A program made the position numbers and the translations under genes. Shown here piece after piece: positions 7,883 through 58,131 of a stretch of 64,000 nt of DNA. Numbering within the stretch: the stretch's first letter is position 1; each line of letters starts with the position of its first letter. The DNA is from a virus (lineage: Duplodnaviria; Caudoviricetes), in IMG/VR virus record IMGVR_UViG_3300025016_000004. One strand, 5' to 3'. The notes beneath the pieces were generated by a model that worked only from the letters and a program-made list of their open reading frames with translations, did not search any database and was not told where the DNA came from.

Positions 7883-8851
7883 CTATATTTTAGCTTCTTT
7901 ATTTTCGTAGCGTTTTTCTAATTCAGCTAACTTGTACTTTTCGAATATGTTATCTCCATTTACTGTAACTTCAGCAATGAATTTAATTACATAGTGTCCG
8001 TTAAATTCAACGATTTTATCGAATTTTTTTACCTCATATTCATATTCTAAACCATCAATTGCACCTATGGTTTTATCAGTAATGAAACCAATCTTAGTAA
8101 TATCAAGTATATTTGAAGCTCTAGGGTTTTTTATAGCTTTTTTAATTTCACCTATTAAAAATTTGGTTTTCTTATCATATTCATCTTGGTAAGAAGATAC
8201 GTAAAATTCCAATAATTTTTCAGTTTCGTTGATATTTCTAACTAACAATTTTTTGGCATAATATTCAATTTCAAATTTCGGTCTAATATCCCTGTCCACA
8301 TATAGAGCCTTTTTTGATTGCATTGTGGACACCATATCATCAAAAGAAATCTCAGCCAACGTATTACCACTCCAAACATCCGCACCAACTAAATCAAACA
8401 TTATTTTACCATCAATAGGTGTATTATCACCTTTTGGGTTAAGTTTTAATTTATCGTTGCTGAAGGCTTCATAAGCTGATTTGGTGATGTCTTCATTCAT
8501 GACAACTAGCTCAACTGGATACGGGTCGAAGTTATCACGGGTTACTTTATCTAATTTATATTTCTCAATATTATAGGTTTCAACTATTGGTAATCCATCA
8601 GCATCATAACCAACTATTTTAGCTGTTTTATTTTTAGATTCACTTAAAACTTTATACAACCGCCATCTCAACTCTTTAACTTGTTGATTCGTTATCTGAT
8701 TTTTTAACCCATGTAATAATGTACCTTGGTCCTTTTCTATTATTAATCCAACACCTGACAAGTCGGAAGTTTTTGATTGAGATAATATCTTTTTATCAAA
8801 AACTGATAAACCAATCAAAAGCCCCATAATTTTATTTTTTATCCACGTCAT
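7883..8851 (-). CDS. Hypothetical protein whose first ~60 aa are supplied by the upstream HEG cassette
   Basis: ATG at 8851 (MTWIK...) preferred to GTG 8875; overlaps the HEG stop by 20 nt. Confidence 0.8.
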   Translation of the reverse strand: MTWIKNKIMGLLIGLSVFDKKILSQSKTSDLSGVGLIIEKDQGTLLHGLKNQITNQQVKELRWRLYKVLSESKNKTAKIVGYDADGLPIVETYNIEKYKLDKVTRDNFDPYPVELVVMNEDITKSAYEAFSNDKLKLNPKGDNTPIDGKIMFDLVGADVWSGNTLAEISFDDMVSTMQSKKALYVDRDIRPKFEIEYYAKKLLVRNINETEKLLEFYVSSYQDEYDKKTKFLIGEIKKAIKNPRASNILDITKIGFITDKTIGAIDGLEYEYEVKKFDKIVEFNGHYVIKFIAEVTVNGDNIFEKYKLAELEKRYENKEAKI

Positions 8852-9596
8852 ATTTGTATTGCCATTTAAATCCACCCGTTTTATTTCTTTTACCTAAACA
8901 AACCGCACTTATTTTACCTCTAATTATATTTAATTCTTTTTCAGCTTCCCCAGCGTGTGACCATAATTTAATTATTTCACCATCTAACCCAATTTGGTAG
9001 ACGTGTTTTCTTTTATTAGAAACTTCACCCTTTTTACTTTCACTTATTTTAGCCCTAACTACTTCACTAACTATTCTACCTGTTAATTTTTTTGATAGTT
9101 TTATTTTAGTTTCTTCTGATGTAACTCTCCCCATATTAGCTTTACTAATTTTTAATTTAGTTTCTTTGGACAATTTACTACCAGTTCTTAATTTTTTCAT
9201 TCTAATAGAAATCTCTTTTGAATATCTTTTAGCTAAATTCGACATTTTTTTCTTGGTTTCATCACTATGCTTATGCCCTATATTACCATGACCACCCTCA
9301 TTACAATTTAAACCAAACTTAAAACAATCATAATGTTTAATCCAATACTTTTCACGATTATTTAAATATTCTTTATTTACCCCACATAAACATTCTTCGA
9401 TTATTTCATAAGTATCAACAGGGTTCCATTTATGTTTTTCGCAACTAGCCCATAATTTTATTTGCGATTTAAAACCCCCCTTTTTATAATTATATTTTCT
9501 TTTTTTATTATTTATTGTTTGACCTATATAAATTTTACCGTTTGGGCTAGTTAATTTATAAATATAACCCTTTACATTTCTTAAATCTTTTTTCAT
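8832..9596 (-). mobile_element. Free-standing GIY-YIG homing endonuclease with NUMOD3/NUMOD1-type DNA-binding repeats
   Basis: GYIYKLTSPNGKIYIGQT, HSDETKKKMS repeats, C-terminal IIKLWSHAGEAEKELNI...KTGGFKW. Confidence 0.9.
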
Positions 9597-9642
9597 AAAC
9601 ACTATTTATTAATAAATATATAATTTTTAATAAAAGTGAAAA

Positions 9643-9828
9643 TTATTCTTTAACAGGCATCGTTATCTCACCTCGTAATAGAGCATCAGCTAACATGCCT
9701 TGTTGATATGTTTGTTCCATGGAACCAATATCACCCAAAGCGTCAGACTTTTGAGTTAGCATGCTCTTTTCAACCCTAGATAATGATAGGGATAGTAATG
9801 CGAATTTTCGTTTTAAGTAGTTAAGTAT
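9643..9828 (-). pseudogene. Stranded original 5' end of the 7883..8851 gene (61 codons, ATA at the presumed start)
   Basis: ILNYLKRKFALL...QQGMLADALLRGEITMPVKE* aligns ungapped with MTWIKNK...DQGTLL...QQVKE. Confidence 0.8.
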
Positions 9829-11412
9829 TTATGTTCTTATATCTGGGTAATTATTATTAAACCAATCAATACTTTCTTTCAACCCATCACGTAATGAAGT
9901 GAATTCAAAATCTGGTAAGTATTTTTTAATTTTACTATTATCACTTGGTTTTCTATATTGTCCATCAGGTTTACTTGTATCCCAAATAACTTCACCATCA
10001 AATTCCATCAATTCAACTATCATATTAACAACTTCTCTTATTGAATGTTCAGTAGATGTGGTTAAAATAATGGGTTCATCTTCATCATAGTTATATAAAA
10101 CCCATTCAGCTAATTTTGCAACGTCTTTAACATATATAAATTCTCTTAAAGGTATTCCACTACCCCAAATAGTAAACGGAGTGTTGTCACGCTTAGCTAT
10201 ATAACATTTATGTATCAATGAAGGTATAACATGGCCATCTTCGATGTTAAAATCATCATTTGGGCCATAAATATTAGTCGGCACTACACACTTATAATTT
10301 AACCCATGTTGCTCCCTATAAGCTCTTATTTGGACTTCAGCCATACGTTTAGCATAACCATAACCATAATTAGATTCATGTGGAGGACCTAAATGTATTT
10401 TATCTTCAGTTAGGGGGTATTCAATTTTAGCTGGGAATATACATGTAGATAAAAAACAAACTAAATTTTTTACACCATGTTTTCTAGCCGCCTCAATAAC
10501 GTTGGTGTTAATCATTAAATTTTCATAAAAATAATCGCCCATATGTTTCATATTACCACCTAACCCACCAACTTTACCAGCACAGTGTATTACATTATTT
10601 ACTGGGTTAGTTTTAAAATATTCATCAACTGAATTTTTATCCATTAAGTCACATTCTGCTCTAGTTAACTTAATAGAATTGTTGGTAAATTGCGACCCAA
10701 CTAATCCGTTTGCCCCAGTGATTAATTTACTATTTAAAAAAGTAGATAATTTTTGGTGATGTTGGTCAATAACGTGTTCCATATTATCTGGGTATCTTCG
10801 CATTTGAATTAATTCAGCCTTTACGCTTTGGTGCGTTTCATCATTATTATTTCCAGTTACATCAAATCTATCATGAGATATGACAATTAATGGTTCTTTT
10901 ATTGTTAAACCTAAGCGTTTCCCCAATATATCTATCCATGAGTCACAAGCAGCAACTTGTGACCATGAGCCAGTCACTTCAAACCATTTTTTTGGGATTA
11001 TTGGAAATAACACACCTTGTTTTTCCCAAAATTCAATCATTGTGTCAACTTTTGGTGAAATAACACAAAATTTATTTTTATATTTTAATATTTCTAAATC
11101 CCAATGCACACTATTCATAATAGCATCATCATTCCATAATAATAAAAATTCTCCTGATGATTTAGTACTTAAATCATTATAATAATTATGTAACCCACGA
11201 TAAAATTGCCTTTCATAAAAAAAGAGTTTAACATTTGGTTTATCCATTGCATACTCTTTTATTTCATTTATAGAGTGAATATCATCATTATCTAAAGCAA
11301 CTAAAACCTCAAAATTATTAACATCACTACAACTTTCAAAAAGAGAATTAATTGATTTTTTAAATAGTTTACCTCTATTTCTTGTTGGTATTAAAACACT
11401 TACTTTATTCAT
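9829..11412 (-). CDS. fcl: GT2 glycosyltransferase fused to GDP-L-fucose synthase
   Basis: N-half VSVLIPTRNR...WNDD; C-half ITGANGLVG, HCAGKVGGLGGN, STCIFP, YGYAKR, PTNIYGP. Confidence 0.9.
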   Translation of the reverse strand: MNKVSVLIPTRNRGKLFKKSINSLFESCSDVNNFEVLVALDNDDIHSINEIKEYAMDKPNVKLFFYERQFYRGLHNYYNDLSTKSSGEFLLLWNDDAIMNSVHWDLEILKYKNKFCVISPKVDTMIEFWEKQGVLFPIIPKKWFEVTGSWSQVAACDSWIDILGKRLGLTIKEPLIVISHDRFDVTGNNNDETHQSVKAELIQMRRYPDNMEHVIDQHHQKLSTFLNSKLITGANGLVGSQFTNNSIKLTRAECDLMDKNSVDEYFKTNPVNNVIHCAGKVGGLGGNMKHMGDYFYENLMINTNVIEAARKHGVKNLVCFLSTCIFPAKIEYPLTEDKIHLGPPHESNYGYGYAKRMAEVQIRAYREQHGLNYKCVVPTNIYGPNDDFNIEDGHVIPSLIHKCYIAKRDNTPFTIWGSGIPLREFIYVKDVAKLAEWVLYNYDEDEPIILTTSTEHSIREVVNMIVELMEFDGEVIWDTSKPDGQYRKPSDNSKIKKYLPDFEFTSLRDGLKESIDWFNNNYPDIRT

Positions 11413-12634
11413 TTTTATAATTTATTAATTTAAATTTAGGGCATGGTACTATAAAAGTCCCGCCATTTTTTAAATATTCATCTTCCCTAATGGTAAATTC
11501 ATTAATAAAATGCCATGGTAATACTAATAAATAATCAGGTTTAGTTTCTCTCATTTCTTTTTCAGAAAAAATAGGAATATTTGTGCCAACGGTTTTCAAC
11601 CCCCATTTTTGATGGTTTTTTTCAGCAATACCATCAATTAAAGAGTTATCTAGCTCAAAATATTGTAACAGGGTGTTTCCCTTGGTTGATGCACCATAAC
11701 CCCAAATAGACTTACCATTACTTTTTTCTGTTTTGATAAAACTAACCAGTTTATTTTTTAAACTTTCAATTTCATTAAAAAAATTAACCCACGTTTCTTT
11801 TTTATCTAAATTTAATGTTTTTTCATAATTTAATAATGAATTTACTCTAAATTTAGCAACATCTCTATATGGTTGTGTACCAAATTTACTTTTATCGGCT
11901 TCATTTTTCATTGCATAGACTCTAAATGACCCACCATTAACATCATTTAATTGAGCATCCATAATATCCAACCCACATTCTTTAAATAATTTTTCAATAT
12001 TGAATAATGAATAATAAAATATATGCTCATGGCATATATTATCAAACGCTAATTGTTTCAACATTAAAGGTGTATAGGATAATTGTATAACCCAAATACC
12101 ATCATCATCTAAAATTTCTTTTAAATCATTAATAAAATTTTTAGGAGTTTCCAAATCATAAAACATTGCTATTGTTGTAACAACTTTAGCTTTAAGATTT
12201 CCAAATCTACTTTTTTTAAAACCTTCAGCTGAAAAATAATCTTGTATTATTAAATCTGAATGTTCTTCAGCTTCAATTTTAAAGGAATCATCGCATGGGT
12301 CAATACCCACTCTTATTAAATTTTTTGGTACAAAACTTAATAATGTACCATCATTAGACGCAATATCTAACCAAATATCATTATCAGATAATTTTGTTAT
12401 TTTTAAAATAGAATTAACTATACTATTTAATTCATTTTTCATTGTATTATTAATCCCAGAACGATACCAATATTTACCATACATTTCATTAATTTTTGGT
12501 GGGTTGGCAATCTTTACAGCTGAACTTTCCTCATCAAACACCAAAGCTAATTCGTGTTTACCCCCTCTAGGTGTTTCACCTTCATTAATGAAGTCTGAAA
12601 TATATAAGTCGCCTAATGTTAACATTTTTTCCAT
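11405..12634 (-). CDS. NDP-hexose C-methyltransferase family (SAM-dependent)
   Basis: LGDLYISDF, YWYRSG, DIASNDGTLL, FDNICHEH, YGASTKGNTLLQ, LVLPWHF. Confidence 0.85.
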   Translation of the reverse strand: MEKMLTLGDLYISDFINEGETPRGGKHELALVFDEESSAVKIANPPKINEMYGKYWYRSGINNTMKNELNSIVNSILKITKLSDNDIWLDIASNDGTLLSFVPKNLIRVGIDPCDDSFKIEAEEHSDLIIQDYFSAEGFKKSRFGNLKAKVVTTIAMFYDLETPKNFINDLKEILDDDGIWVIQLSYTPLMLKQLAFDNICHEHIFYYSLFNIEKLFKECGLDIMDAQLNDVNGGSFRVYAMKNEADKSKFGTQPYRDVAKFRVNSLLNYEKTLNLDKKETWVNFFNEIESLKNKLVSFIKTEKSNGKSIWGYGASTKGNTLLQYFELDNSLIDGIAEKNHQKWGLKTVGTNIPIFSEKEMRETKPDYLLVLPWHFINEFTIREDEYLKNGGTFIVPCPKFKLINYKNE

Positions 12635-12637
12635 ATT

Positions 12638-13684: not shown

Positions 13685-13688
13685 TATA

Positions 13689-19883: not shown

Positions 19884-19886
19884 ATT

Positions 19887-26807: not shown

Positions 26808-29188
26808 CTACTTTTCAGTGCCAAAAACAAGTTTTTTGTAATATTTAGCACGATTTTCTGTAACTTTATCCATTGAGTAGGTTTCAGCCACAGTATTATA
26901 TAAATTATCCCCAAGTATTTTTATCATCTCAGGGTTTTGTATCAATTTTTTAAGGTATTGATACCATTGTTTATGATTCCTATGAGAATCAACCAATAAA
27001 CCATTTTTAGTTAAATCAATTTCACCACCTTTTTGAAATGCATTTTGAATATCAATTGTATAAGGACCATAATTTTGAGCGATTAACGCCTTTTTATGGA
27101 AACCGCTTTCAATTACCTTTAATTGACTTTTAACTTTATTGAAGGTATGTTCAGTCAACGGTGCTAATGAAATATCAAATAAATTATAATTGGTCGCATA
27201 ATTGGTGATTGGTTTTGTCCAAACTCTTCTGTACGGCTCTTGCATAATGCTAGGGAATTCTTCAGTCACATATCTCAATAAATGCTCTTTATATTCTTTT
27301 GAAATTGTCGTATAATCATTGGTGAATATTTTTTCATATTCACACCAAACTGTTTCGTGTGGTAATATATCTCTTTGAGTTTGTTCACCTGTATCTTTGT
27401 TAATTGAATTAACCTTACCTCTAGTATCAAACCCACATAACACAAATTGTATTTTATCTAATAACCCGTCACCTTTTAATTTAGAAACTAATTGATTTAA
27501 TAATTTTAAATCTGCTAAATGACTATTCCCAATCCAAAATGCTTTACCATTTCGTCTAATATATATTATATGATTTTGAACTTCAACGCAATAAACATTT
27601 CCTTTATAATATTTTTTATATTGGTCATCTGTTTTAATTAAAGGGGTATTTTTATTATGTTTACTAACACTAGGGTGTTTTGTAAAATTAACAACTAATG
27701 AATCAAATTGGTTAGTGATTTTACGGCCTTTAATCATAGACGTTCTTTTACCTCGATTAGTAATGGTGGCTGAAATACCTAATTTTAATGCCATTTCTTG
27801 TAAATCATTGGCTAACGCTGATGAAGAGGTAAAAGCTCTAGTTCTACCATATTTGTTATTTTCAATATGACCATCACCATTAATAAACCATTCTAAAAAT
27901 ATCTTTAATTGCCTAGATGACAAATTTAATATTTCTTTAGGTATAAATTTTTCTGTAGCGGTACCAAAATCAGATAAATAATTCCATAATTGTTTATCAA
28001 AGACTCTCAATTGTTTTTTATCTTTAGTGTATTTTGGGTTAAATCCCATTTTAGTTAACAAATTAAACATATGCTCCAAATAATGATTATCTTTAGATTG
28101 AGCAATACCTACTTGATGTAAACCCTTACTTTTACTAGTCCAACCTTCAGCCATCCAAAAGCCGAAAAACTCTAACCAATCATTCATTTCTATCATAGTA
28201 TCAGTCCCATATTTTTCATATAAATCAACCCCATACTTATTTTTTTTATGTCCTTTTATAAAATTTTCATTATAAGCTTCTTCAAATTCGAACTTTAATT
28301 CAGTATAACTAGCTAAATTAGGTAATATAAAATATTCTACCTCATTACCAATCCAATTAGCATTTTTTCTAACATGAAAATTTTTACCATATATTTTTTC
28401 TGATTGTACTAACCCTAAATTCAATTTTTTATGAGTTAAATTCTTAGCTTCTGATGCGTACATATTATGGTTTGGTGTAACTTCATACTCAATTAACCCA
28501 TTTTTAGCACAATTTAATTCACCATCGAATGGTTCACATATATACCCACTTGGTTTATGATATTCCAAATAATTAGTTTCTGGGTTTAATGTTACTACTT
28601 TTTCAGTCTTATCTAACTCATCAAATCGTTTCCAACCACCATCAGTTAAAATTTCGGTATCTGGAGTCATACAACTCCCACCTAACCAACCAATTCTGAT
28701 TTTATCAGAAGGTTCTGGGTTTGAAGTGTATTGTTTTTCTGTTGGGTCAATAGCATTTGGTAAGACTACAACATTCTTGTTATGTTTTTTAATTTCATTT
28801 GCAAAAATTTCTGTTGTTGTTATAATATTCTCAGCAATTTTTAAATTATTAAGGATTTTTTTATCCAAATCATTATTTTTTATAATATGATATGCTGGGT
28901 GAGTCATATCTGGTAACCAATAATCATCTAAATCCATAACTGTAGGGATTCCTAATGATTTTAATTTTTCTAATAATCCTTCCATTTGGTCATAATTACC
29001 CAAAGCTCTATGATAATGAATTAGGTCGTATTGTTTTAACCAATCGTCATCATGTAATTTTGGCTCATATTCAATATCCACATGAAATTCATCTGGATAT
29101 AATTTTTCTAAATGTAAGTTTGGCTTGGTTGAACGAAAATAGCTCAACTTACCCCAGTACGGTCTGAAGGGACTACAAGTATCTTCAT
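26808..29188 (-). CDS. GT-B (GT4-like) glycosyltransferase with intein; first 14 codons out of frame with the body
   Basis: MKILVVPSDRTGVS* (29188-29144) then SYFRSTKP... in another frame; MDLDDYW, PNAID, GWLGGS|SH, KSQLKVIESG. Confidence 0.8.
27525..28673 (-). mobile_element. Intein (383 aa) with LAGLIDADG endonuclease in glycosyltransferase
   Basis: Starts CMTPDTEILT, VTPNH block B, ends WIGN|S; FFGFWMAEG and FLEWFINGDG. Confidence 0.9.
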
Positions 29189-29207
29189 TTTTTGACCTAC
29201 TGGGGTA
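29150..29207 (-). promoter_or_regulatory. RNA hairpin enclosing the glycosyltransferase start codon
   Basis: TACCCCAGTA-GGTC pairs with GACC-G-TACTGGGGTA (14 bp, 1 bulge); begins at the base after the HEG stop. Confidence 0.7.
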
Positions 29208-29975
29208 TCAATTTTGTTTGTTTTCATAATATTTTATTATTTCGTTTATTAGTTCTGGGTTTCTTTTATAATCACTTTCCCAAATAACTTTACTATTATA
29301 ACCATTTTTTTTCGCTAAGTAAAGCTTTTTATTATCACATAACCAAATTTCTTTGGCTGTTTTACTTTTTTTCTTATGCCAATACTCAGCATTATATTTT
29401 TTTGGGTTACAATGCCAATAATCACCATTATACTCTATTAATAAATTAAATTGTGGGACGTAAATATCAAAAATTTTACTTCCTATTCTATAATTAGGTT
29501 CACAATTAATACCTACTTCACTTAATTTATTTATTATTTCATCTTCAGCTTTAGACCTATTATAACTTTTTAATTCACCATTCATTATCCTTTCTTTCAT
29601 CAACTTACTCATTTTAACCCTAACACCTTCCATTTCACCACTTGCCCATAATTTTTTTTTCATATCACTAAACATTTTTCTATATTTTGGTTTAGACATG
29701 TGATTACTGGTGGAAACCCCTATTTTTGATTTACTTATCTTGTTTTTAGTTTCTTCAGTATGGGTTTTATTATAAAATGGGTTACCAACACCTTTTTGTT
29801 TTTTTAATGAACATTTTTTACATATACCTTTCTTTTTTAAATTTCTAGCTAAATAATATTCTTTTGAGGCTTCAACTAATATTTTATTTTTACATAAATG
29901 GCATTTGTAAAAAGAATACCATTTCTGGTTATCAACATTAAATTTGAAGTGTTTATATTTTTCATTTGATTCCAT
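29208..29975 (-). mobile_element. Free-standing Vsr-like/EDxHD-type homing endonuclease with NUMOD3-like repeats
   Basis: GNPFYNKTHTEETKNKIS, SKAEDEI, FDIYVP...IEYNGDYWH, KVIWESD. Confidence 0.8.
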
Positions 29976-30004
29976 AAATTATTTATTAATAAATATGGAA
30001 AAAT

Positions 30005-30076
30005 TTATAAAAAGTTTAAGTATGATACACCTGTTCTGTCACTTGGGACAACTAAGATTTTTATTTTTTTACTCAT
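30005..30076 (-). pseudogene. Stranded original 5' end of the glycosyltransferase
   Basis: MSKKIKILVVPSDRTGVSYLNFL*; KILVVPSDRTGVSY is identical to the downstream copy. Confidence 0.88.
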
Positions 30077-30095
30077 TCTAAAATTCACTTAAACA

Positions 30096-30124
30096 AGTAT
30101 AAGGAAATAAAAAGAATAAGTAAA
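30096..30124 (-). promoter_or_regulatory. sigma70-like promoter TTTACT-N17-TATACT
   Basis: Exact 17-nt spacing, 19 nt upstream of the stranded ATG, just after a terminator. Confidence 0.6.
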
Positions 30125-30125
30125 T

Positions 30126-30153
30126 AAAAAAACCCACTTAAAGTGGGTTTTTT
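30126..30153. terminator. Intrinsic terminator
   Basis: AAAAAAACCCACTT-A-AAGTGGGTTTTTT. Confidence 0.8.
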
Positions 30154-30156
30154 ATA

Positions 30157-30750
30157 TTATTTAGTTGATTTTGGTGTAACTTTTATCTTACCTTCTTTGA
30201 TAAGAGTGGTAATAGTCCTTTTAATTGTAGTTTCAGTTAAATTTTTGGTAAAGGTAGTAGCCATAAAATCTAATAATTTATCTTGAATCTTTTTATCTAA
30301 CTCAGCTTCAGTCATTGTAATTAACATTTGACCTTTTGAATTTACGATTGTAGTTTCATTAATTTGAGAAACTTGAGTTTGTGTAGGTTGTACATATTGA
30401 GCTTGTGGTGCTATTTGTGGTCTAACTAATTTCTTAACATCATCTAAAGAAAATGTTGGCCCACCACCACTAGCCATTTCAAATTTAGGTATTGGGTTTT
30501 CTACCATAGCTCTTTTTATTGCTTCAGGCATTTTACTTTTTTCTAAATTTTGATATGTATTACTGATTTGTCTAGCTGGGTTTGTATGAGGTGTTGCGCC
30601 ATCTGGCAACGCTTCTAATAAATCAACATTACCCGTTAATGTTTCATTTATTATTGTATGGTCAACTTTAAAGTTCGTATTATTAACTTTATCCATTACA
30701 GCTTTGGCCCCACCAAGCATTGCTTCTAATCTTTCTTTACTTACGTCCAT
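30157..30750 (-). CDS. Hypothetical protein
   Basis: 197-aa ORF with Gln/Pro-rich linker. Confidence 0.75.
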   Translation of the reverse strand: MDVSKERLEAMLGGAKAVMDKVNNTNFKVDHTIINETLTGNVDLLEALPDGATPHTNPARQISNTYQNLEKSKMPEAIKRAMVENPIPKFEMASGGGPTFSLDDVKKLVRPQIAPQAQYVQPTQTQVSQINETTIVNSKGQMLITMTEAELDKKIQDKLLDFMATTFTKNLTETTIKRTITTLIKEGKIKVTPKSTK

Positions 30751-43533: not shown

Positions 43534-43613
43534 CATAAAATAAAAAATAAGCTCTTAATTTTCCGTAAAGGATTTTTAACTATTTTTGTAAATAAATCTA
43601 AATCAAATCTAAA

Positions 43614-43847: not shown

Positions 43848-43848
43848 C

Positions 43849-44046: not shown

Positions 44047-44136
44047 GTTGTGAACCTATCGGGGCTCAATTCTCATTTTAATCAATATATATCGTATTAA
44101 AGGTGTAAAGCTCATATTTATATAGAAATAGGGTTT

Positions 44137-45345: not shown

Positions 45346-45455
45346 TTGGGAGAACAAGGTTAATCATTTATTACATGTGGTATTTAAGTTTTATAATAAA
45401 AGCCTATAAAAATGTGTTTTAGAATAAAAAATTAACTATTTATAAAAAAAGATAA

Positions 45456-47186: not shown

Positions 47187-47224
47187 CGTTAATAGGTTAA
47201 AGAGTATATTTATAATAAAAGATT

Positions 47225-48400: not shown

Positions 48401-48402
48401 AC

Positions 48403-48428
48403 AAAAAGAGGTCAATTGACCTCTTTTT
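48403..48428. terminator. Bidirectional intrinsic terminator
   Basis: Perfect palindrome AAAAAGAGGTCAATTGACCTCTTTTT between convergent genes. Confidence 0.88.
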
Positions 48429-52956: not shown

Positions 52957-53129
52957 TTTTGTCTATAACTTTGTGCAATAAAACACAATTTTTAGCCAAA
53001 AAACAAGTTTTTTTTAAAGATTTTTATCATAATTTGTTACTTACCAGGTTTTTACGATATTCATTTGTATGATAAAAGTTTTAAAATGTAATACAAAAAT
53101 ATTCACGAATTTATGGAGATTTAAGAAGT

Positions 53130-53492
53130 TTAATTCTCAAGGATGTGAATATATAATTTATCTCTAATTGGGACTATTAGAGTACCAGAGCCATCTCTAA
53201 ATACTATTTTAAATTCGCCAATATAAGTACCAGCTTGTTTAGTTTCTTTTTCTGTAAAGTAGTATGCAAGGTAATATTCTTCACCTACACAGTCACTTGA
53301 GGATTCTTTTAGTAAGCATAAAGCGTCTTTACCACCAATTCTTTTAACCCCAGTATTTGTATCTGTCATACAAAATGTTATATCAGAATTTTGTATCATA
53401 TCATGGAATCTACTATAATCGTTTCGTCCATCGTTAATTAATTCCAATTTTAAAATCGGTAATGTTGCTTTTTTATTTATGTAAAAATCCAT
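53130..53492 (-). CDS. BppU-like small virion/baseplate protein
   Basis: FYINKKATLPILKLEL...Y....ETKQAGTYIGEFKI...TLIVP. Confidence 0.55.
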   Translation of the reverse strand: MDFYINKKATLPILKLELINDGRNDYSRFHDMIQNSDITFCMTDTNTGVKRIGGKDALCLLKESSSDCVGEEYYLAYYFTEKETKQAGTYIGEFKIVFRDGSGTLIVPIRDKLYIHILEN

Positions 53493-53517
53493 TTGTTCTT
53501 TTATTATAAATATATTG

Positions 53518-53772
53518 TTATGTATTTAAAGATTGAATTAATACAATTGCTTGGTCAATTGTTTGGAAACTCCTATTTGGAACCAATACATGTTTATCAA
53601 ATATGATGATAGGGATTACAGGTTCACCAACGAAATCAAATAATTTAATGACATGTTCTCTATTGGAATCATCATCAATATTTATATTGGTGAACTCAAG
53701 GTTTAATTTGCTTAACTTTTCTTGTAAATCCTTACAATAAGGGCAATTATTACTTGTATATACTTTTATCAT
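53518..53772 (-). CDS. Glutaredoxin-like protein
   Basis: VYTSNNCPYC. Confidence 0.9.
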   Translation of the reverse strand: MIKVYTSNNCPYCKDLQEKLSKLNLEFTNINIDDDSNREHVIKLFDFVGEPVIPIIIFDKHVLVPNRSFQTIDQAIVLIQSLNT

Positions 53773-56678
53773 AACTCTAATCCGTTTTCTTCTAAATCAT
53801 TTAATAATCTGGATAATCTATCACTAGTTTTATCACCTCTATTTAATATTTTATCAATATTTTTTTGTTTATTCATCACAGAATACCACATCACAAAAGA
53901 TACTGTACCTCTAAATAATTGGTAATAAACTGAAACGTTATTTTTCTGCCCGATTCTGTAACAATTATGAACATTATAATTACCAACTACAAATGAGTGG
54001 TCATCTTCTACTGATAAATCATAAACCCTTTCCTCACCTCTTTTAGGTTTTGAAATTTTAATTGATTTAATCGGGTAAGTAATATAATCACCTACTTGAT
54101 TAATTCTTTTATTTTCAACTCTATTTAATGAATACTCAATTGAGTAATTATTAACATTTTTATTAGATAAAGTAACACTCCTACCTAAATTAGCGTTATA
54201 TCTAACCAATTGTGATATTAATTTTAAAGAAGCGGTAGTAGCTTGTTGAGTATTTTTACGTTGGTAACCATCACCATGATAATACCCATCTAATAAATGT
54301 TTTAATTGTTCATTATTTAAATAATCAACCCAATATGGTAATTGTTTAGAATATACATTTTCACCGAACCACATTTTAAATAAATTTGCCATTTCACTAG
54401 AATGTATGGTACAAGTTTTTGTATTATTTTTATCAACATAAGATGAATGTTTATCAATTTTAAAACCCCTTTTTATTATATCAATAATATATTCTGAAGC
54501 GTCATACATTTTAGGGTTAGTTATTTTTTGACATACATTAATTGTATCTGATTTATTATCAGAAATACTACACCAACCATCAGCAATGTAAAACCCAAAA
54601 GCGTATAATAATTCATTAGTTAATAAAACACTTTTAGGTAAAGTAACTAACCTACCATTGGTTTGTAAAAGATTGTGATTATTTTTAAAGTACTTACTTT
54701 TAAAACTTGGTATTTTTAATTCTTCTAATCTACTTATTGGTTGATGTTCACTTCTAATCGTTAAAAAATGATTCAAAATATTTAAATCTTTTGCTTCAAT
54801 CCAAATAAAATCATCTAATATTTTATCATATACATATAATTTATGGTCATGTGTAACTGATAAACTGTTATTATATCCAAAAGCATTTATATCATATCTT
54901 AATTTTTTACGTTCTAATTTAGAAGTTTTATCAATTACATTTTTAAATTTACCTTTATGTGTATAAACTTTATCACCAATTTCAATTTCTTGAATCATTT
55001 TATAACCATCGTCAGTCATAACCCATTGGTCACCAAATATACATCTATCTTCCGCTTGTTCATTATCCCCTGGCACCCAACTGAATGAATTAAAGATAAC
55101 CACAGTACCTTCAGTTAACGTAATACCAACACCCGCAGAAGCTATATTTCCAATAAATACCTTACATTTCTTATTGGTTTGGAATTTATCCACTGATTTT
55201 TGTTTTTCAGTTGAATTCATTCTACCATTATGTATAACGCATTGATTTCCGAAATGTTCAGCTAATTCTTCCAATTCATCAGTAAAAGTAGTAAAAATAA
55301 CGATTTTTTGACCTTGTTCTATGGCATCTTCAGCTAATTCGATTGTTTTTGGTATCACTTCCATAGCAATAAACTTTCTTAAAAGACCTAATTCAACCAA
55401 ATCTTTATTTAAACTAACTCGCTTACCTTCAGCCGCCTTTTTCTCTAAATATTCTTCCCAAAGGTTTTCATATTCAGCCCAACCACGTTTTGACATATCA
55501 TGATACATTGTGGTAATGGTTTTATCTGGCATATCCAAAACATCAGTTTTTAATCTTCTTAAAAGGTTGTTTTTAGTTCTAATTCCTAATTCATCTAAAT
55601 TAGAAGCACCATCAGTTATCCAAATCTGTCTTTTAACTCCGTTTATTACTTTATAAAATCTTTTAGCATCACAATATCTTTGAGCAAAGAACTTCCAATT
55701 ATCAGCCAATGGTGATTTAACCAATTTTAATAAATTGAAGAAATCCATAGGTCTATTAGCAATTGGTGTACCTGTTAATAACCACACTTTACCGATTTGA
55801 CCTTTAGAAACAATATCATTGATTAATTTGGTTCTTTGAGCTTTGGGGTTTTTAACCTTATGAGCTTCATCTAAAATCATCAAATCATAATCTTCATCAA
55901 TTATATTGGTGTAACAAGGGTCACCTTCTTTTTTAGGTTTACCTATACTGTGAAAGTTTTTAAGTATTTCATAATTTATAATGGTAAACCTACCAACGTG
56001 AGACCACTTACTACCATTAATAATCGTAGCTTTTTGTTTAAAACTTTCTATTTCTCGTTGCCAAGTAATTTTCATACTCACTGGACAAATTATTAAAACT
56101 TTTTTAATATCCATTTCTAATGCAGCGATAATTGATTGATAAGTTTTTCCTAGGCCCATCGAATCAGCTAAGATTGCACCATCTCTACACGCTAAGAACT
56201 CAATACCACTTTTTTGATGCTCATATGGGTGACGGCCATCAGTGTCTAATTCTTCATATTTACCCCAATCAATTTCAATTTCACATTCAGTAAAATATGG
56301 GTCATCCAAAACCATTGTTTTTGGTAACCAATACATTTTGGATTGTTTTTGTTTTTGTGTTAGCTTACCATAAACGTGATATGTCTTTTCTTGGTCAGCC
56401 AACATTGCTTGAATTAGCATACGCTCAGGTACAAAAGATAAACTGTATTTATCTTTTAATGATTCACCTAGAAATGGGTTAATCCTAATCACACGATTTA
56501 GGACTTGTGGTTCCACATCATGAAATTTATTTATATATTCAACTTGACCTTCAGTTAAAGTTATTTTATCATTTTTTCTTAACTTACTTTGCAAGTCTTT
56601 TAAGTATGGGTTAATCCCTGTATATGTTTGTAATAAGGTTACTGCACCTCTACTCTTTATGTCTTCTAAATTTATCAA
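53769..56678 (-). CDS. SNF2-family helicase with intein
   Basis: LADSMGLGKT, ILDEAH, LTGTPIAN, GVGITLT, QAEDR|CYRIGQ. Confidence 0.93.
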   Translation of the reverse strand: MINLEDIKSRGAVTLLQTYTGINPYLKDLQSKLRKNDKITLTEGQVEYINKFHDVEPQVLNRVIRINPFLGESLKDKYSLSFVPERMLIQAMLADQEKTYHVYGKLTQKQKQSKMYWLPKTMVLDDPYFTECEIEIDWGKYEELDTDGRHPYEHQKSGIEFLACRDGAILADSMGLGKTYQSIIAALEMDIKKVLIICPVSMKITWQREIESFKQKATIINGSKWSHVGRFTIINYEILKNFHSIGKPKKEGDPCYTNIIDEDYDLMILDEAHKVKNPKAQRTKLINDIVSKGQIGKVWLLTGTPIANRPMDFFNLLKLVKSPLADNWKFFAQRYCDAKRFYKVINGVKRQIWITDGASNLDELGIRTKNNLLRRLKTDVLDMPDKTITTMYHDMSKRGWAEYENLWEEYLEKKAAEGKRVSLNKDLVELGLLRKFIAMEVIPKTIELAEDAIEQGQKIVIFTTFTDELEELAEHFGNQCVIHNGRMNSTEKQKSVDKFQTNKKCKVFIGNIASAGVGITLTEGTVVIFNSFSWVPGDNEQAEDRCIFGDQWVMTDDGYKMIQEIEIGDKVYTHKGKFKNVIDKTSKLERKKLRYDINAFGYNNSLSVTHDHKLYVYDKILDDFIWIEAKDLNILNHFLTIRSEHQPISRLEELKIPSFKSKYFKNNHNLLQTNGRLVTLPKSVLLTNELLYAFGFYIADGWCSISDNKSDTINVCQKITNPKMYDASEYIIDIIKRGFKIDKHSSYVDKNNTKTCTIHSSEMANLFKMWFGENVYSKQLPYWVDYLNNEQLKHLLDGYYHGDGYQRKNTQQATTASLKLISQLVRYNANLGRSVTLSNKNVNNYSIEYSLNRVENKRINQVGDYITYPIKSIKISKPKRGEERVYDLSVEDDHSFVVGNYNVHNCYRIGQKNNVSVYYQLFRGTVSFVMWYSVMNKQKNIDKILNRGDKTSDRLSRLLNDLEENGLEL
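53964..55043 (-). mobile_element. Intein (360 aa) with LAGLIDADG endonuclease in helicase motif VI
   Basis: Starts CIFGD, VTHDH, VYDLSVEDDHSF, ends VHN|C; FGFYIADG and LLDGYYHGDG. Confidence 0.92.
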
Positions 56679-56712
56679 ATTAATTATTTTTATAACAATA
56701 TATTATATTGTT

Positions 56713-56741
56713 AATATACTAAATTTTAATGAAAAAGTAAA
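56713..56741 (-). promoter_or_regulatory. sigma70-like promoter TTTACT-N17-TATATT for the helicase operon
   Basis: Same -35 hexamer and spacing as the 30096-30124 promoter. Confidence 0.6.
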
Positions 56742-56795
56742 TAGTTGGGACTATTTATATAATATGAAATATTTATCAATATATGATTAAGAGTT

Positions 56796-56843
56796 ATGGG
56801 TGCAAATAGAAATAAAATACCAATTAAAAGAATCAACAAATAA
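56796..56843 (+). pseudogene. Stranded original 5' end of the 57619 gene
   Basis: MGANRNKIPIKRINK*; the 24 nt at 56818-56841 are identical to 57632-57655. Confidence 0.85.
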
Positions 56844-56850
56844 GTTTTAT

Positions 56851-57064
56851 AAAACGGAGCGTAAAACCCATTCATCGCTTTAGCGTGAATGGGATGTAAG
56901 CAACAAAAAGATTTGACTTTTAAAAATAAAGTTGTATATTTTTATTAACTCTGGTTTTGGGATGCAATCGGAGTATAAACAAAAACAAGTGGAGGTGTTG
57001 ACGTTGGTCGAGTCTATGAAACTTGAAGCCCAACCCATCGGCTCGCCGTGGGTGGGTAGTTCAC
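56851..57064 (+). mobile_element. Non-autonomous IS200/IS605-family miniature element
   Basis: Follows TTTAT; left hairpin CCCATTCA..CGCT/AGCG..TGAATGGG; right end GAAGCCC-hairpin-GGGTAGTTCAC; internal TTGACT-16-TATATT. Confidence 0.8.
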
Positions 57065-57065
57065 T

Positions 57066-57641
57066 GAAAAACTTAAAAGTAGGAAAAAAGAAATTGGTTA
57101 TAATATATCAGTTGGTGGTCGAAATGGAGTAACTCTTAACAGAAAACATTCTAAAGAAACAATAAAGAAAATGAGTGAAACTAGAAAGGGGATTACATTT
57201 TCTAAGGAAACTTTAAAAAAAATGAGTGAAGCTAAAAAAGGTAAAAAACACTCTAAGGAAACTAGAGAAAAGATGAGTAGACTTAAAAAAGATAAAAAAG
57301 GTAAAAAACACTCTAAGGAAACTAGAGAAAAGATGAGTAGTCTTAGAAAAGGTAAAAAACATTCTAAGGAAACTTTAAAAAAAATGAGTGAAGTTAAAAA
57401 GGGTGATAATAACCATTTTTTTGGTTTATCTCACACAATGAAAATTAGAAATATCATTTCCAAAAAAAACTCTAAAAAAGTATTTGAATTTAAAGATGGT
57501 GATAAAATTAATGAATGGGATAGTTTAAGTAAATGTGCTTTAGATAATAATATTAATATTGGTTACTTATCAAAATGTATAACTAATAATAAAAAATGTA
57601 AAAAAAGATATTTTAAATATGAAAAAGTTGGTACCAATTAA
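57066..57641 (+). pseudogene. GIY-YIG homing endonuclease lacking its catalytic N-terminus
   Basis: In frame with ATG 57171 upstream: EKLKSRKKEIGYNISVGG (end of a GIY-YIG domain), then KKHSKETREKMS NUMOD3 repeats. Confidence 0.8.
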
Positions 57642-58131
57642 AAGAATCAACAAATTTTTTTCTAAAAGAGATTTTGATTTGGAAATTTCTTTAGGTCGTG
57701 AAGCGATAGAAGGTGATGGAAATTTTACTGTAATTTTATATAGAGTTGATAGGAAAACAACCCAGGTTGATGATTTATATGGTGAAGCAAGTGCTAGTGA
57801 AATCAATTTTCTACCTCCCGTTGAGATTTATATAGTTCCGATTATAGATAAAGCTGAAAATAAAACATATAATCCAGATTCCATGCGTTATCTTGAAGAT
57901 GGTAATTTAACTTTCATTGTTTATGTACAACATTTAAACGAATTGGCTGTTGATATAACTGTTGGTGATTATATAGCGTATCCAATTGATGAATCGGACG
58001 TTGTTTATTTTAATGTGACTAATGCTGGTGAAAAGAATTACGACAACGCTCACACAATAATGGGTTATAAAGGTGCTTATAGAATTATCAATTGTACTTT
58101 TGCCAATGAAGATGAATTCAAAGGAATATAA
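57619..58131 (+). CDS. Head completion/neck protein (T4 gp14-like)
   Basis: VILYRVD, DDLYGEA, F.PPVEI, GDYIAY; position among neck and tail genes. Confidence 0.6.
   Translation: MKKLVPIKRINKFFSKRDFDLEISLGREAIEGDGNFTVILYRVDRKTTQVDDLYGEASASEINFLPPVEIYIVPIIDKAENKTYNPDSMRYLEDGNLTFIVYVQHLNELAVDITVGDYIAYPIDESDVVYFNVTNAGEKNYDNAHTIMGYKGAYRIINCTFANEDEFKGI

What the first reader, a model, noticed from the sequence alone, without database searches (positions are those of the whole stretch)
8672..57655. Recurrent system: HEG cassettes that insert in a gene's 5' end and supply a replacement N-terminus
The same layout occurs three times (8672-9828, 29142-30076, 56796-57655): stranded old 5' end with stop, then AT-rich leader, HEG, and a new start plus a copy of the lost codons joined to the gene body. 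In each case the new start overlaps or directly follows the HEG stop, so the host gene is tied to the HEG transcript and probably to its translation. Two unrelated nuclease families (GIY-YIG, Vsr-like) share the leader ATATTTATTAATAAATA...TTTATG. This would be a splicing-free way to be harmless while splitting the target site. Gene-end replacement by HEGs is known from fungal mitochondria (e.g. Allomyces atp6). I am not aware of it being described as a repeated strategy within one phage genome; that novelty claim is unverified.
Basis: partly seen in the sequence, partly recalled or inferred. Interest (0 to 1): 0.88.

Follow-up and report, generated by a model that had tools for sequence, protein, structure and literature searches.

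The report
Endonuclease cassettes carrying replacement gene starts
In this large uncultured phage, selfish DNA-cutting genes have inserted into the starts of at least three genes and each brings a spare copy of the start it displaced; in one case the spare start can only join its gene if the ribosome hops over a stop codon, which would make it a rare natural example of such hopping.

Summary
Each has the native 5' end stranded behind a stop, a promoter-like leader, a homing endonuclease gene (HEG), and a new start overlapping the HEG stop by 20-23 nt that re-encodes the lost codons.

Cassette-free relatives in IMG/VR begin with the remnant-type N-terminus, and remnant plus body form one gene. 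Cassettes 2 and 3 recur in other phages, and I checked a fourth cassette just outside the window. Independent assemblies give identical DNA.

Corrections:
- The cassette-1 remnant is 61 codons long and has lost its start.
- The cassette-3 HEG has lost its catalytic domain.
- The shared leader matches this phage's general promoter-like motif.
- In cassette 2 the new 5' end is not in frame with the body.

In 53 distinct cassette-2 alleles, a 27-29-codon ORF ends in Ser/Gly plus a stop. A short gap follows, then a matching or near-matching landing codon and an intact glycosyltransferase, a shift of +5 to +13 nt in all three frames. A covarying hairpin abuts the take-off codon. I read this as a ribosomal hop that also splits the HEG target.

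The closest known systems are the T4 mobA/gene 60 element and fungal mitochondrial mobile endonuclease ORFs (mORFs). First-reader notes on this genome had flagged these features; none had been followed up.

The parts
9643..9828 (-). C1 remnant: native 5' end of the 330-aa gene (61 codons plus TAA). The start codon is lost (ATA). It ends ...PVKE then stop.
   Evidence: It is 43/61 identical to the N-termini of cassette-free relatives L010/L012, the same level as the body (181/258).
9597..9642 (-). C1 leader with the 18-nt palindrome at 9602-9619, which contains the phage promoter-like core ATATTTAT 23 nt before the HEG ATG.
8832..9596 (-). C1 HEG: intact GIY-YIG plus NUMOD3 endonuclease of the I-TevI type.
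   Evidence: Pfam GIY-YIG 23.5 bits (cut-off 22.6) and NUMOD3. TIGR01453 75.4 bits (cut-off 56); phrog_314.
8672..8851 (-). C1 replacement 5' end (60 codons, ATG 8851). It overlaps the HEG 3' end by 20 nt and is in frame with the body.
   Evidence: It is only 20/58 identical to relatives' N-termini and to the remnant.
7883..8671 (-). C1 gene body, function unknown. It starts LRWRLYK, as in relatives.
   Evidence: No Pfam, PHROG or Atlas hit.
30005..30076 (-). C2 remnant: native start plus 18 native codons of the glycosyltransferase, running to ...RTGVSY, then 4 foreign codons and a stop.
   Evidence: It matches the start of cassette-free L006, and homologous remnants occur in L135, L140 and L143.
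29976..30004 (-). C2 leader with the palindrome at 29979-29996 (promoter-like core 21 nt before the HEG ATG).
   Evidence: Homologous leaders are seen in L140 and L143.
29208..29975 (-). C2 HEG: a NUMOD3 segment plus a C-terminal Vsr-like (EDxHD-type) nuclease domain, intact.
   Evidence: NUMOD3; PF18741 is below its cut-off. AlphaFold2 model with pLDDT 81. Best PDB matches are the I-Bth0305I catalytic domain (E 2.5e-3, TM-score by target 0.72) and Vsr (E 1.6e-2). D170/E181/D185/H188/D214 are invariant in 27 homologues.
29144..29227 (-). C2 replacement 5' ORF. It has 27 codons (a 13-codon extension, then KILVVPSDRTGVS) followed by TGA, and its ATG overlaps the HEG 3' end by 20 nt.
   Evidence: 53 distinct homologous alleles.
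29149..29207 (-). C2 conserved RNA hairpin. The 5' arm (29194-29207) lies in the extension codons (TPVGQ). The 3' arm (29150-29164) lies in the DRTGV codons, ending at the take-off codon.
   Evidence: MFE -27 kcal/mol, z -5.5; 93% of cells paired versus 32-48% in slid controls, with covariation exceeding all 500 shuffles; absent from cassette-free alleles and remnants.
29142..29149 (-). C2 proposed hop site: take-off AGT (29147-29149), stop TGA (29144-29146), landing AGC (29142-29144). This is a +5 shift.
26808..29141 (-). C2 gene body: a GT4-type glycosyltransferase that resumes at YFRSTKP and carries a LAGLIDADG intein at 27525-28673.
   Evidence: The model of cassette-free L006 places the junction between the beta1-loop and helix 1.
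56796..56843 (+). C3 remnant: native promoter context, start, 15 codons ending ...PIKRINK, and TAA.
   Evidence: It is colinear with the promoter and start of L019, L024 and others. The same junction is seen in L067 and L081.
56844..57059 (+). C3 debris where the HEG leader and GIY-YIG catalytic half should be. It holds a leader-like motif (about 56932-56950) and a patch of 45-48% GC (about 56950-57100).
   Evidence: Rfam finds no intron.
57060..57641 (+). C3 HEG relic: an open frame holding the last motif of the GIY-YIG domain (IGYNISVGG), NUMOD3 repeats and a C-terminal domain. The catalytic N-half is missing.
   Evidence: Intact counterparts are in L067 (215 aa) and L070 (254 aa).
57619..57654 (+). 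C3 replacement 5' end (12 codons, MKKLVPIKRINK). It overlaps the HEG relic by 23 nt. The 24-nt repeat 57632-57655 is identical to 56818-56841.
57655..58131 (+). C3 gene body, a 170-aa protein that is widely conserved. It may be a neck or head-tail joining protein (weak lead).
   Evidence: 172 relatives. Atlas feature hits include clusters carrying T4_neck-protein and Phage_H_T_join_2.

Best explanation
These are homing-endonuclease cassettes that behave like introns or inteins but need no splicing.

How each cassette is built:
- It sits at a fixed point in the first 15-60 codons of a phage gene.
- To its left remain the gene's own promoter and 5' codons, closed off by a stop at or within a few codons of the cassette's left edge.
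- The cassette supplies a phage-type promoter-like leader, the endonuclease gene, and a new start codon inside the last about 20 nt of that gene.
- It also supplies a diverged copy of the displaced codons that runs into the untouched gene body. The gene stays functional while the endonuclease's target is split.

Inferred homing and life cycle:
- In a mixed infection the enzyme would cut the uninterrupted allele at the junction.
- The remnant and the body would then serve as left and right homology arms for copying the cassette in.
- Divergence of the replacement codons would protect against self-cleavage. It would also protect against deletion by recombination with the remnant.
- C1 and C2 look active. 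C3 is in decay: the catalytic half of its HEG is gone, and 24-nt perfect repeats could excise the cassette precisely.

Cassette 2 in particular:
- The replacement copy would rebuild the target, so a 2-10-nt spacer beginning with a stop codon separates it from the body.
- I propose that the ribosome reaches the Ser or Gly take-off codon with a stop in the A site.
- The peptidyl-tRNA then unpairs, the mRNA slides 5-13 nt, and the tRNA re-pairs at a cognate or near-cognate landing codon. Refolding of the conserved upstream hairpin behind the ribosome would help this.
- The result is a continuous glycosyltransferase.

What is shown and what is inferred: the anatomy, the cassette-free alleles, the recurrence, the hairpin covariation and the intact bodies are shown. 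Cleavage specificity, homing, the promoter function and the hop itself are inferred.
For: Architecture and overlaps.

Cassette-free alleles that begin like the remnants:
- C1. The remnant is 70% identical to relatives, like the body; the new end is 34%.
- C2.
- C3.

The same cassettes occur elsewhere:
- C2 with a remnant and a homologous leader in L135, L140 and L143.
- C3-type with intact GIY-YIG HEGs in L067/L081 and L070, and with a different junction fused in frame in L050.
- A fourth cassette in this genome.

HEG identity.

Synonymous recoding of the replacement versus the remnant: 10/14 identical-residue codons differ in window C2, 8/14 in L143, 7/9 in L067 and 8/13 in L070.

Hop:
- 53 distinct alleles have the stop directly after the take-off codon. 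Shifts are +5 to +13 in all three frames, and every resolved landing codon shares at least 2 of 3 nt with the take-off codon, 31 of them strictly cognate.
- In the 18 IMG/VR alleles checked, 15 bodies are complete and open (378-408 aa, or 764-778 aa with the intein) and 3 run off the contig end. In most of them no start codon lies near the landing site.
- The hairpin is present in all 42 distinct 78-nt segments folded. Its covariation includes all four Watson-Crick pairs at the Val third position, and the first take-off nucleotide is paired.
- It is absent from cassette-free alleles and remnants.
- The N-ORF encodes beta1 and the loop of the Rossmann domain, and the body starts at helix 1.
- HEG-less alleles keep the N-ORF, hairpin and gap.

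Identical DNA is found in independent assemblies.
Against: - No enzyme activity, homing event, transcript or protein was observed. No RNA run holds the stretch.
- The take-off and landing codons both descend from the same native Ser/Gly codon. Part of their match may therefore be ancestry or gene conversion rather than selection for tRNA re-pairing. 22 of 53 alleles are only 2-of-3 matches, and one (GGC to AGC) needs an A.C mismatch.
- The search pattern itself required V-P-S-D-R-T-G-V, so invariance of those residues is partly ascertainment. The unbiased sets agree, but they are small.
- The alleles are phylogenetically related, so the shuffle controls overstate significance.
- The in-frame (+6, +9) alleles could instead use stop-codon readthrough.
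- The window allele has TTG overlapping TGA, so termination-reinitiation is possible there.
- In some lineages the replacement and remnant share long identical runs (20 nt in L135, 18 in L081, 23-24 in window C3). Recoding is therefore not universal.
- A screen of about 65 other loci with homologous HEGs found duplications only at the glycosyltransferase. That screen also missed C3, so it is insensitive.
Confidence: 0.8

Rival explanations
1. These are ordinary free-standing endonuclease genes in intergenic DNA. The remnants are accidental debris of one-off illegitimate recombination or local tandem duplication, with no role in mobility. There is no selected 'system'.
For: - Many C2-family loci carry the HEG and the N-ORF but no remnant, so the remnant is dispensable once the cassette is in place.
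- The C1 remnant has lost its start codon.
- In window C3 the two copies share 24 identical nt, as a recent local duplication would.
- A screen of other homologous HEG loci found no further duplications.
Against: - The same remnant junction recurs in diverged phages. C2 breaks after GV[SG]Y in the window, L135, L140 and L143. C3 breaks after RINK in the window, L067, L081 and L070.
- Four cassettes in about 70 kb share one layout, each with an overlap of the HEG 3' end and the new start: 20-23 nt for the three in the window and 4 nt for the fourth.
- The replacement copies are far more diverged than the remnants. This fits import with the HEG, not local duplication.
- The leader, N-extension, hairpin and gap travel together with the HEG.
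Confidence: 0.12
2. In cassette 2 the glycosyltransferase is not rejoined by a hop. Either the gene is a pseudogene, or the body is made separately by reinitiation or non-canonical initiation. The 27-codon ORF with its hairpin would then be only a regulatory leader or a separate complementing peptide.
For: - In the window a TTG overlaps the TGA, the classic coupling geometry.
- A few alleles have GTG or TTG within 13 codons upstream of the landing site.
- In T4 and Aeh1, HEG-split proteins work as two chains (bioRxiv 10.1101/2022.08.31.505936, section 12).
- No protein data exist.
Against: - In most of the 18 alleles checked, the first canonical start in the body frame lies 5-69 codons downstream of the landing site. 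Starting there would delete helix 1 and more.
- Of those 18 bodies, 15 are complete open frames and 3 run off the contig end, although the 53 alleles share only about 50-65% identity.
- The stop always directly follows the take-off codon, and the landing codon always precedes the first conserved body residue whatever the frame.
- The ORF encodes beta1 of the Rossmann core. Leu, Ser and Arg codons there switch between six-fold boxes while the residue is kept.
- The hairpin ends at the take-off codon, not around a start codon.
Confidence: 0.12
3. The interruptions are spliced elements (a group I intron or an intein) whose flanking 'duplications' are exon or extein sequences. The gene would be restored by RNA or protein splicing.
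For: - The window is rich in inteins (PhoH, glycosyltransferase, SNF2).
- I-TevI-type and I-Bth0305I-type enzymes are typically intron-encoded (TIGR01453 name; PDB 3r3p title).
- The C3 debris has a GC-rich, mildly structured patch (z -2.2).
Against: - Rfam finds no intron in the window at gathering thresholds, nor in 56650-57250 at E up to 1.
- The remnants end in stop codons, and the replacement ends have their own ATG.
- The codons are present twice, which splicing would not require.
- No Hint/intein blocks flank the HEGs.
Confidence: 0.02

Closest known systems
T4 MobA / gene 60 mobile element (HNH endonuclease, N-terminal extension (NTE) with an insert-encoded copy of the deleted target region ('HomR'), and a 50-nt translational bypass). 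Sources: Manning & Atkins, bioRxiv 10.1101/2022.08.31.505936, sections 6 and 12, and the Bonocora et al. work cited there as [19].
   Same: - The HEG sits directly upstream of the interrupted gene's downstream part.
- The new start lies out of frame inside the HEG 3' end (8-32 nt there, 20-23 nt here).
- A unique N-terminal extension is followed by an insert-encoded, diverged copy of the target region.
- A coding gap begins with a stop right after the take-off codon, with a matched landing codon.
- The gap lies at the HEG target and is thought to confer self-immunity.
- Alleles exist that lost the HEG but kept the bypass.
- VSR and GIY-YIG enzymes can replace MobA.
   Different: - The host gene differs: a glycosyltransferase and two other genes rather than a topoisomerase.
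- The insertion is at codons 15-60, so the upstream piece is a useless stub and the whole N-terminus is replaced. In T4 the gene is split into two functional chains with C- and N-terminal tails.
- The target codons are duplicated, not deleted.
- The gap is 2-10 nt (shift +5 to +13), not 50 nt.
- There is no take-off stem-loop spanning the gap and no KKYK-type signal. Instead a hairpin lies wholly upstream, formed between the extension codons and the copied codons.
- C1 and C3 need no recoding at all.
Fungal mitochondrial mobile endonuclease ORFs (mORFs) with gene-end replacement. Examples are Allomyces macrogynus atp6, and Glomus sp. atp6, atp9, cox2 and nad3 (PMC3630166).
   Same: - An endonuclease ORF is inserted in a gene together with a foreign copy of the displaced gene end.
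- The native end is stranded next to it.
- The native piece is close to relatives and the inserted piece is much more diverged, mostly at synonymous sites.
- It occurs several times in one genome and with two nuclease families (LAGLIDADG and GIY-YIG there).
   Different: - It is a mirror image. There the 3' end is replaced and the native C-terminus is stranded downstream. Here the 5' end is replaced, so the cassette must also supply a promoter and start.
- Here the native promoter and start are what get stranded.
- The host is a phage, not an organelle.
- No recoding is known in the fungal cases.
Synthetic 'stop-hops' in E. coli and programmed bypassing in Magnusiomyces mitochondria (reviewed in PMC5009743).
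   Same: - The peptidyl-tRNA leaves a codon that is followed by a stop or a slow-to-decode codon. It re-pairs at a matched or 2-of-3-matched codon a few nucleotides on.
- Shifts of +5 and +6 were seen with synthetic constructs (the construct details rest on my own recollection of the primary literature).
   Different: - The review states that no natural in-frame stop-hop is known, and that short-distance counterparts of gene 60 had long been presumed but not found.
- Here the sites are natural and conserved in 53 alleles, tied to an HEG, and equipped with a covarying hairpin.
Fractured genes: a free-standing Vsr-like HEG between split-intein halves (Dassa et al. 2009, PMC2677866; abstract and title seen only).
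   Same: The nuclease family appears to be the same as the C2 HEG, and the enzyme likewise sits inside a phage or environmental gene.
   Different: There the gene product is restored by protein trans-splicing. Here no intein flanks the HEG, and the gene is restored by a replacement 5' end.

Membership tests
HEG cassette with gene-end replacement (mitochondrial mORF / Allomyces atp6 type) | An endonuclease ORF lies inside a host gene between two copies of one gene end. | tested here: met
   for the three window cassettes. for a fourth.
HEG cassette with gene-end replacement (mitochondrial mORF / Allomyces atp6 type) | The stranded copy is the native one (as close to relatives as the rest of the gene), and the copy continuous with the gene is more diverged. 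| tested here: met
   C1: 43/61 versus 20/58 identical, with the body at 181/258. C2 and C3: the remnant plus upstream region looks colinear with cassette-free relatives when the sequences are read side by side. Synonymous recoding is shown.
HEG cassette with gene-end replacement (mitochondrial mORF / Allomyces atp6 type) | The replaced end is the 3' (C-terminal) end of a mitochondrial gene. | tested here: not met
   Here the 5' end of phage genes is replaced. The logic is the same but the orientation is mirrored.
HEG cassette with gene-end replacement (mitochondrial mORF / Allomyces atp6 type) | The endonuclease cleaves the ORF-less allele and drives insertion. | not testable with these tools
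   This needs enzyme and homing assays.
T4 MobA / gene 60 bypass element | The HEG is followed by an overlapping new ORF that carries a unique extension plus an insert-encoded copy of the target region. | tested here: met
   The description is compared with sections 6 and 12 of bioRxiv 10.1101/2022.08.31.505936.
T4 MobA / gene 60 bypass element | A coding gap begins with a stop immediately 3' of the take-off codon, and a matched landing codon sits immediately 5' of the resume codon. | tested here: met
   This holds for 53 of 53 alleles. 31 are strictly cognate and the rest are 2-of-3 matches.
T4 MobA / gene 60 bypass element | A homologous 50-nt gap with a take-off stem-loop, a KKYK-type nascent peptide signal, an HNH MobA enzyme and a topoisomerase host gene. 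| tested here: not met
   The gap is 2-10 nt. The HEG is Vsr-like. The host gene is a glycosyltransferase. The N-extension has no KKYK. This is not a member but works in a similar way.
T4 MobA / gene 60 bypass element | Ribosomes actually bypass the gap. | not testable with these tools
   This is inferred only from comparative data.
GIY-YIG homing endonucleases (I-TevI type, TIGR01453) | A GIY-YIG catalytic domain plus NUMOD3/DNA-binding modules, scoring above curated cut-offs. | tested here: met
   C1 HEG: Pfam GIY-YIG 23.5 bits (cut-off 22.6), NUMOD3 48 bits, TIGR01453 75.4 bits (cut-off 56). The C3 relic has NUMOD3 only and lacks the catalytic half. The intact L067 counterpart scores 76.4 bits.
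Vsr-like / EDxHD homing endonucleases (I-Bth0305I type) | A C-terminal nuclease domain with the Vsr fold and conserved acidic and His residues. | tested here: inconclusive
   - No sequence family is above its cut-off: PF18741 scores 22 bits against 38, and there are no NCBIfam or PDB sequence hits.
- The fold search puts I-Bth0305I (E 2.5e-3, TM-score by target 0.72) and Vsr (E 1.6e-2) on top, but none reaches E 1e-3.
- D170, E181, D185, H188 and D214 are invariant in 27 homologues.
- Membership is likely but not proven.
Intron- or intein-encoded HEG | A flanking group I intron RNA or Hint splicing domains. | tested here: not met
   Rfam finds nothing. No Hint/intein domains flank these HEGs. 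The remnants end in stops and the new ends have their own ATG.

The most novel reading that the evidence does not exclude
The cassette-2 family would be a second natural, endonuclease-linked translational bypass element unrelated to T4 gene 60. It would be a programmed short 'stop-hop' of 5-13 nt. In it, refolding of a conserved hairpin built from the codons of an added N-terminal extension pulls the mRNA forward. The peptidyl-tRNA (Ser or Gly) then re-pairs just past a stop codon. The few inserted nucleotides would exist to break the endonuclease's own target. Together with C1, C3 and a fourth cassette, it would show that phage endonucleases have a general splicing-free way to live inside genes: carry a replacement 5' end.
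Probability: 0.65. Interest if true: 0.9.

Novelty: new variant of a known kind. Interest (0 to 1): 0.82.

Why it matters
- **A third route for endonucleases.** Homing endonucleases are thought to survive inside genes by hiding in self-splicing introns or inteins, or by splitting proteins that still assemble. These cassettes point to another route in phages: insert near the 5' end and bring a recoded spare start. The same route is used at least four times in one genome by two nuclease families.
- **Annotation.** Genes downstream of such cassettes will be called truncated, TTG-started or pseudogenes, and the remnants will be called orphan ORFs.
- **Natural hopping.** If the hop is real, it supplies dozens of natural sequence variants, with gap lengths in all three frames, several take-off/landing pairs and a covarying hairpin. 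These could test models of how mRNA structure behind the ribosome drives forward sliding. A 2016 review notes that short natural counterparts of gene 60 had long been expected but not found (PMC5009743).
- **A recurring solution.** It would also show that the pairing of 'endonuclease plus bypass as self-immunity' arose more than once.

Tried and rejected
- Nucleotide searches of the INPHARED phage collection with all three regions found no relatives. No whole genome is held for this window.
- Rfam found no intron or other RNA, either over the whole window at gathering thresholds or over the C3 debris at permissive E-values. The only hit was a meaningless 19-bit sRNA match.
- RNAalifold on a MAFFT alignment of 18 N-ORFs gave no structure, because the 5' arm was out of register in some clades. 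I replaced it with MFE-anchored counting and a gapless 31-sequence alignment with a stated structure.
- A protein-level screen for upstream/downstream duplications around about 65 homologous HEG loci found only the glycosyltransferase cases. It also missed window C3, so it says little about rarity.
- I considered an SD-like GGGG/GGAG element three nt before the take-off codon, as in prfB. The same bases are explained by the hairpin and covary with their partners, so no separate claim is made.
- The GC-rich patch in C3 is only mildly structured (z -2.2) and remains unexplained.
- Sequence searches of the PDB and NCBIfam gave nothing for the C2 HEG.
- The Atlas gave nothing for the C1 body.
- No RNA runs hold the region, so expression could not be examined.

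Full report
**Setting**

The window has 30% GC. It belongs to an uncultured phage seen in groundwater and aquifer metagenomes. No whole genome is held for it, and it has no close relative in the INPHARED phage collection.

Protein-level relatives occur on IMG/VR contigs of up to about 360 kb. A contig overlapping the window's start carries a Gp23-type capsid gene.

Only three NUMOD3-type endonuclease genes lie in the window. All three are the ones in the finding.

**Observation**

Reading both strands confirms the layout at all three sites.

C1 (minus strand):
- The reading frame homologous to the gene's N-terminus runs from the stop of the upstream epimerase gene (9829-9831) down to a TAA at 9643-9645. 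That is 61 codons. The 39-aa ATG-ORF is only its tail.
- Where relatives have ATG, the remnant has ATA.
- Then come a 46-nt leader, an intact GIY-YIG/NUMOD3 gene (8832-9596), and a new ATG at 8851. From there 60 codons run in frame into the body.

C2 (minus strand):
- The remnant (30005-30076) keeps the native start and 18 native codons.
- The HEG (29208-29975) has a NUMOD3 segment and a C-terminal nuclease domain.
- The new ATG is at 29227.

C3 (plus strand):
- The remnant (56796-56843) keeps 15 codons and stops at TAA.
- The endonuclease frame (57060-57641) retains only the last GIY-YIG motif, the NUMOD3 repeats and a C-terminal domain.
- The new ATG is at 57619.
- A 24-nt exact repeat (56818-56841 and 57632-57655) flanks the cassette.

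New starts overlap the HEG 3' ends by 20, 20 and 23 nt.

Contigs assembled separately from four runs contain 28900-30200 without a single difference. These runs may include the source sample.

Cassette-free alleles were found for all three genes.

- **C1.** Seven IMG/VR loci encode one continuous protein through ...PVKE|LRWRLYK. The window's remnant is 43/61 identical to the N-termini of L010 and L012, the same level as the body (181/258). The new N-terminus is only 20/58 identical. The remnant is therefore the native end, and the replacement is foreign or fast-evolving.
- **C2.** L006-L009 start M(S)K.IKVLVVPSDRTGVS|Y, like the remnant. They have the same upstream terminator and spacing.
- **C3.** Dozens of loci share the upstream motif AAATATTTAT and a start ...K.PI.RINK|FFS. 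The remnant ends exactly at K followed by TAA.

**Recurrence**

- C2-type cassettes with a remnant, a homologous leader, the HEG and the new ORF occur in L135, L140 and L143. Their remnants all break after GV[SG]Y/F.
- C3-type cassettes with intact GIY-YIG enzymes occur in L067/L081 (remnant MDNKKITPITRINK plus TAA) and in L070.
- In L050 a longer 24-codon remnant is fused in frame to the HEG, so this is a different junction.
- A first-reader note (e1-5389457) pointed to a fourth cassette just outside the window. I fetched that DNA and confirmed a 55-codon remnant, a promoter-like leader, a 276-aa GIY-YIG gene and a 304-aa body. The body's first about 38 residues duplicate the remnant, and the stop and start overlap as ATGA.

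**The enzymes**

- The C1 HEG and the L067 HEG pass TIGR01453 and Pfam GIY-YIG/NUMOD3.
- The C2 HEG has no sequence family above its cut-off.
- An AlphaFold2 model built on 27 homologues (pLDDT 81) matches the I-Bth0305I catalytic domain and Vsr best, at marginal E-values.
- 'Vsr-like' is therefore probable, not proven.

**The leader**

The 17-nt identity between the C1 and C2 leaders is real and unique to them. Its core, ATATTTAT(A/T), also sits 19-31 nt before about ten other start codons that head gene blocks. It also resembles the conserved motif upstream of C3-gene relatives.

I read it as the phage's own promoter type carried by the cassettes. This is an inference.

**Cassette 2 is not seamless**

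The new ORF ends ...GTA AGT TGA, and the body reads AGC TAT TTT... five nucleotides after the AGT.

The IMG/VR relatives L001-L003 have GGT TAA GGC at the same place. I then scanned for the degenerate pattern encoding VPSDRTGV-x-stop. The scan returned 25 IMG/VR loci, all of which are homologues. It also returned 80 metagenome loci, of which about 19 GC-rich ones are chance hits.

This gives 53 distinct alleles:
- The ORF has 27-29 codons.
- The take-off codon is AGY or GGY, directly followed by TGA (29 alleles) or TAA (24).
- The landing codon lies 5, 6, 7, 8, 9, 10, 11 or 13 nt after the take-off codon.
- All three frames are represented: 16 alleles stay in frame, 15 shift by one and 22 by two.
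- The next codon is always the first conserved body residue ([YKFHA][FY]RS).
- Landing codons are strictly cognate in 31 alleles. They differ at the third position in 12. They are AGY to GGC in 9, where a G.U pair with U36 is possible. One is GGC to AGC.

Other points from the 18 IMG/VR alleles examined in detail:
- 15 of the 18 bodies are complete open frames, and 3 run off the contig end.
- Most have no start codon near the landing site.
- Several have lost the HEG but keep the ORF, hairpin and gap.

**The hairpin**

A first-reader note on this window (e1-5389472) drew my attention to a hairpin. By then I had already found the matched-codon pattern.

- The codons of the added extension (typically TPVGRK) pair with the codons for DRTGV and with the first one or two nucleotides of the take-off codon.
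- MFEs are -24 to -38 kcal/mol, with z-scores of -2.3 to -8.2.
- On a gapless alignment of 31 alleles, 93.4% of cells are paired, against 32-48% when partners are slid.
- The covariation score is 0.201 against 0.117 +/- 0.008, and none of 500 shuffles reaches it.
- The pair at the Val third position shows CG, UA, AU and GC. The pair at the first take-off nucleotide switches UA/CG with Ser/Gly.
- Cassette-free alleles and remnants have no such structure.

**Why the two ORFs must be joined**

A high-confidence model of cassette-free L006 (pLDDT 92) places residues 5-10 in strand beta1 and starts helix 1 at residue 17. The short ORF therefore encodes the core strand and loop of the N-terminal Rossmann domain.

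A ribosomal hop is the only single mechanism that fits all frames. The spacer sits about 5 nt from the point where the remnants break. It is thus within the presumed target, as in T4.

**Caveats**

- Nothing was measured biochemically.
- The alleles are related, and the search pattern fixed eight residues.
- Codon matching may be partly inherited.
- In-frame alleles could use readthrough, and the window allele could reinitiate at TTG.

**Comparison with the literature**

The closest system is the MobA element. It has an HEG, an overlapping N-terminal extension, an insert-encoded copy of the target region ('HomR'), a bypass that blocks self-cleavage, and HEG-less survivors. That preprint calls the bypass cassette unique.

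The 2016 review says no natural stop-hop is known, and that short-distance counterparts of gene 60 had been presumed to exist.

Fungal mitochondrial mORFs show the mirror-image C-terminal replacement, four times in one Glomus mitochondrial genome.

Full-text searches found no description of the present family. That library is incomplete.

**Verdict**

It is a new variant of a known kind, and the cassette-2 hop is its most notable part.

Noticed in passing
L294:14780-16710 (same genome, about 3-5 kb before the window's start): A fourth cassette of the same design. It has a 55-codon remnant, a promoter-like leader, a 276-aa GIY-YIG/NUMOD3 HEG and a 304-aa body (weak Zn-ribbon hit at its C-terminus). 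The body's first about 38 residues duplicate the remnant, and the HEG stop and new start overlap as ATGA.
   Followed up: partly
window 6007-7812 (-), 27525-28673 (-), 53769-56678 (-): Three LAGLIDADG-type inteins lie in one 64-kb window, in the PhoH-like ATPase, the glycosyltransferase and the SNF2 helicase. Some relatives lack them (L006-L009 for the glycosyltransferase, L067 and L070 for the helicase). The glycosyltransferase thus carries an intein and an HEG cassette independently.
   Followed up: partly
window, e.g. 33050, 44114, 47206 (+); 53513, 33035, 25710 (-): The motif ATATTTAT(A/T) sits 19-31 nt upstream of about ten start codons that head gene blocks. It is a candidate phage promoter with very short leaders.
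   Followed up: partly
window 56950-57100: A patch of 45-48% GC in a 30% GC genome sits where the catalytic half of the C3 GIY-YIG domain should be. It has two local hairpins and only mild overall structure (z -2.2). Its origin is unknown.
   Followed up: partly
L050:3196-4002: Here a 24-codon remnant of the C3-type gene is fused in frame to an intact GIY-YIG HEG. The endonuclease could therefore be translated from the host gene's own start, as with intron ORFs fused to upstream exons.
   Followed up: no
L099, L104, L106, L108, L110, L116, L120 (upstream of the N-ORF): These alleles keep the extension, hairpin, stop and gap, but have no endonuclease gene upstream. In L099, L104, L106 and L116 a terminator and intergenic DNA lie directly before the ORF. 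This suggests the gap persists after the HEG is lost.
   Followed up: partly
window 58144-58887 and 58912-59943 (+): Two adjacent genes are clear paralogues with near-identical first about 230 residues in pattern. They lie directly downstream of the C3 gene and are probably structural proteins.
   Followed up: no
L224, L225, L228, L232, L247, L261, L274, L279 and relatives: One clade has take-off AGY, TGA, C, then GGC. This is a non-cognate landing codon that would need a G.U pair at the first position. Alternatively the hop lands elsewhere and adds a Gly.
   Followed up: no
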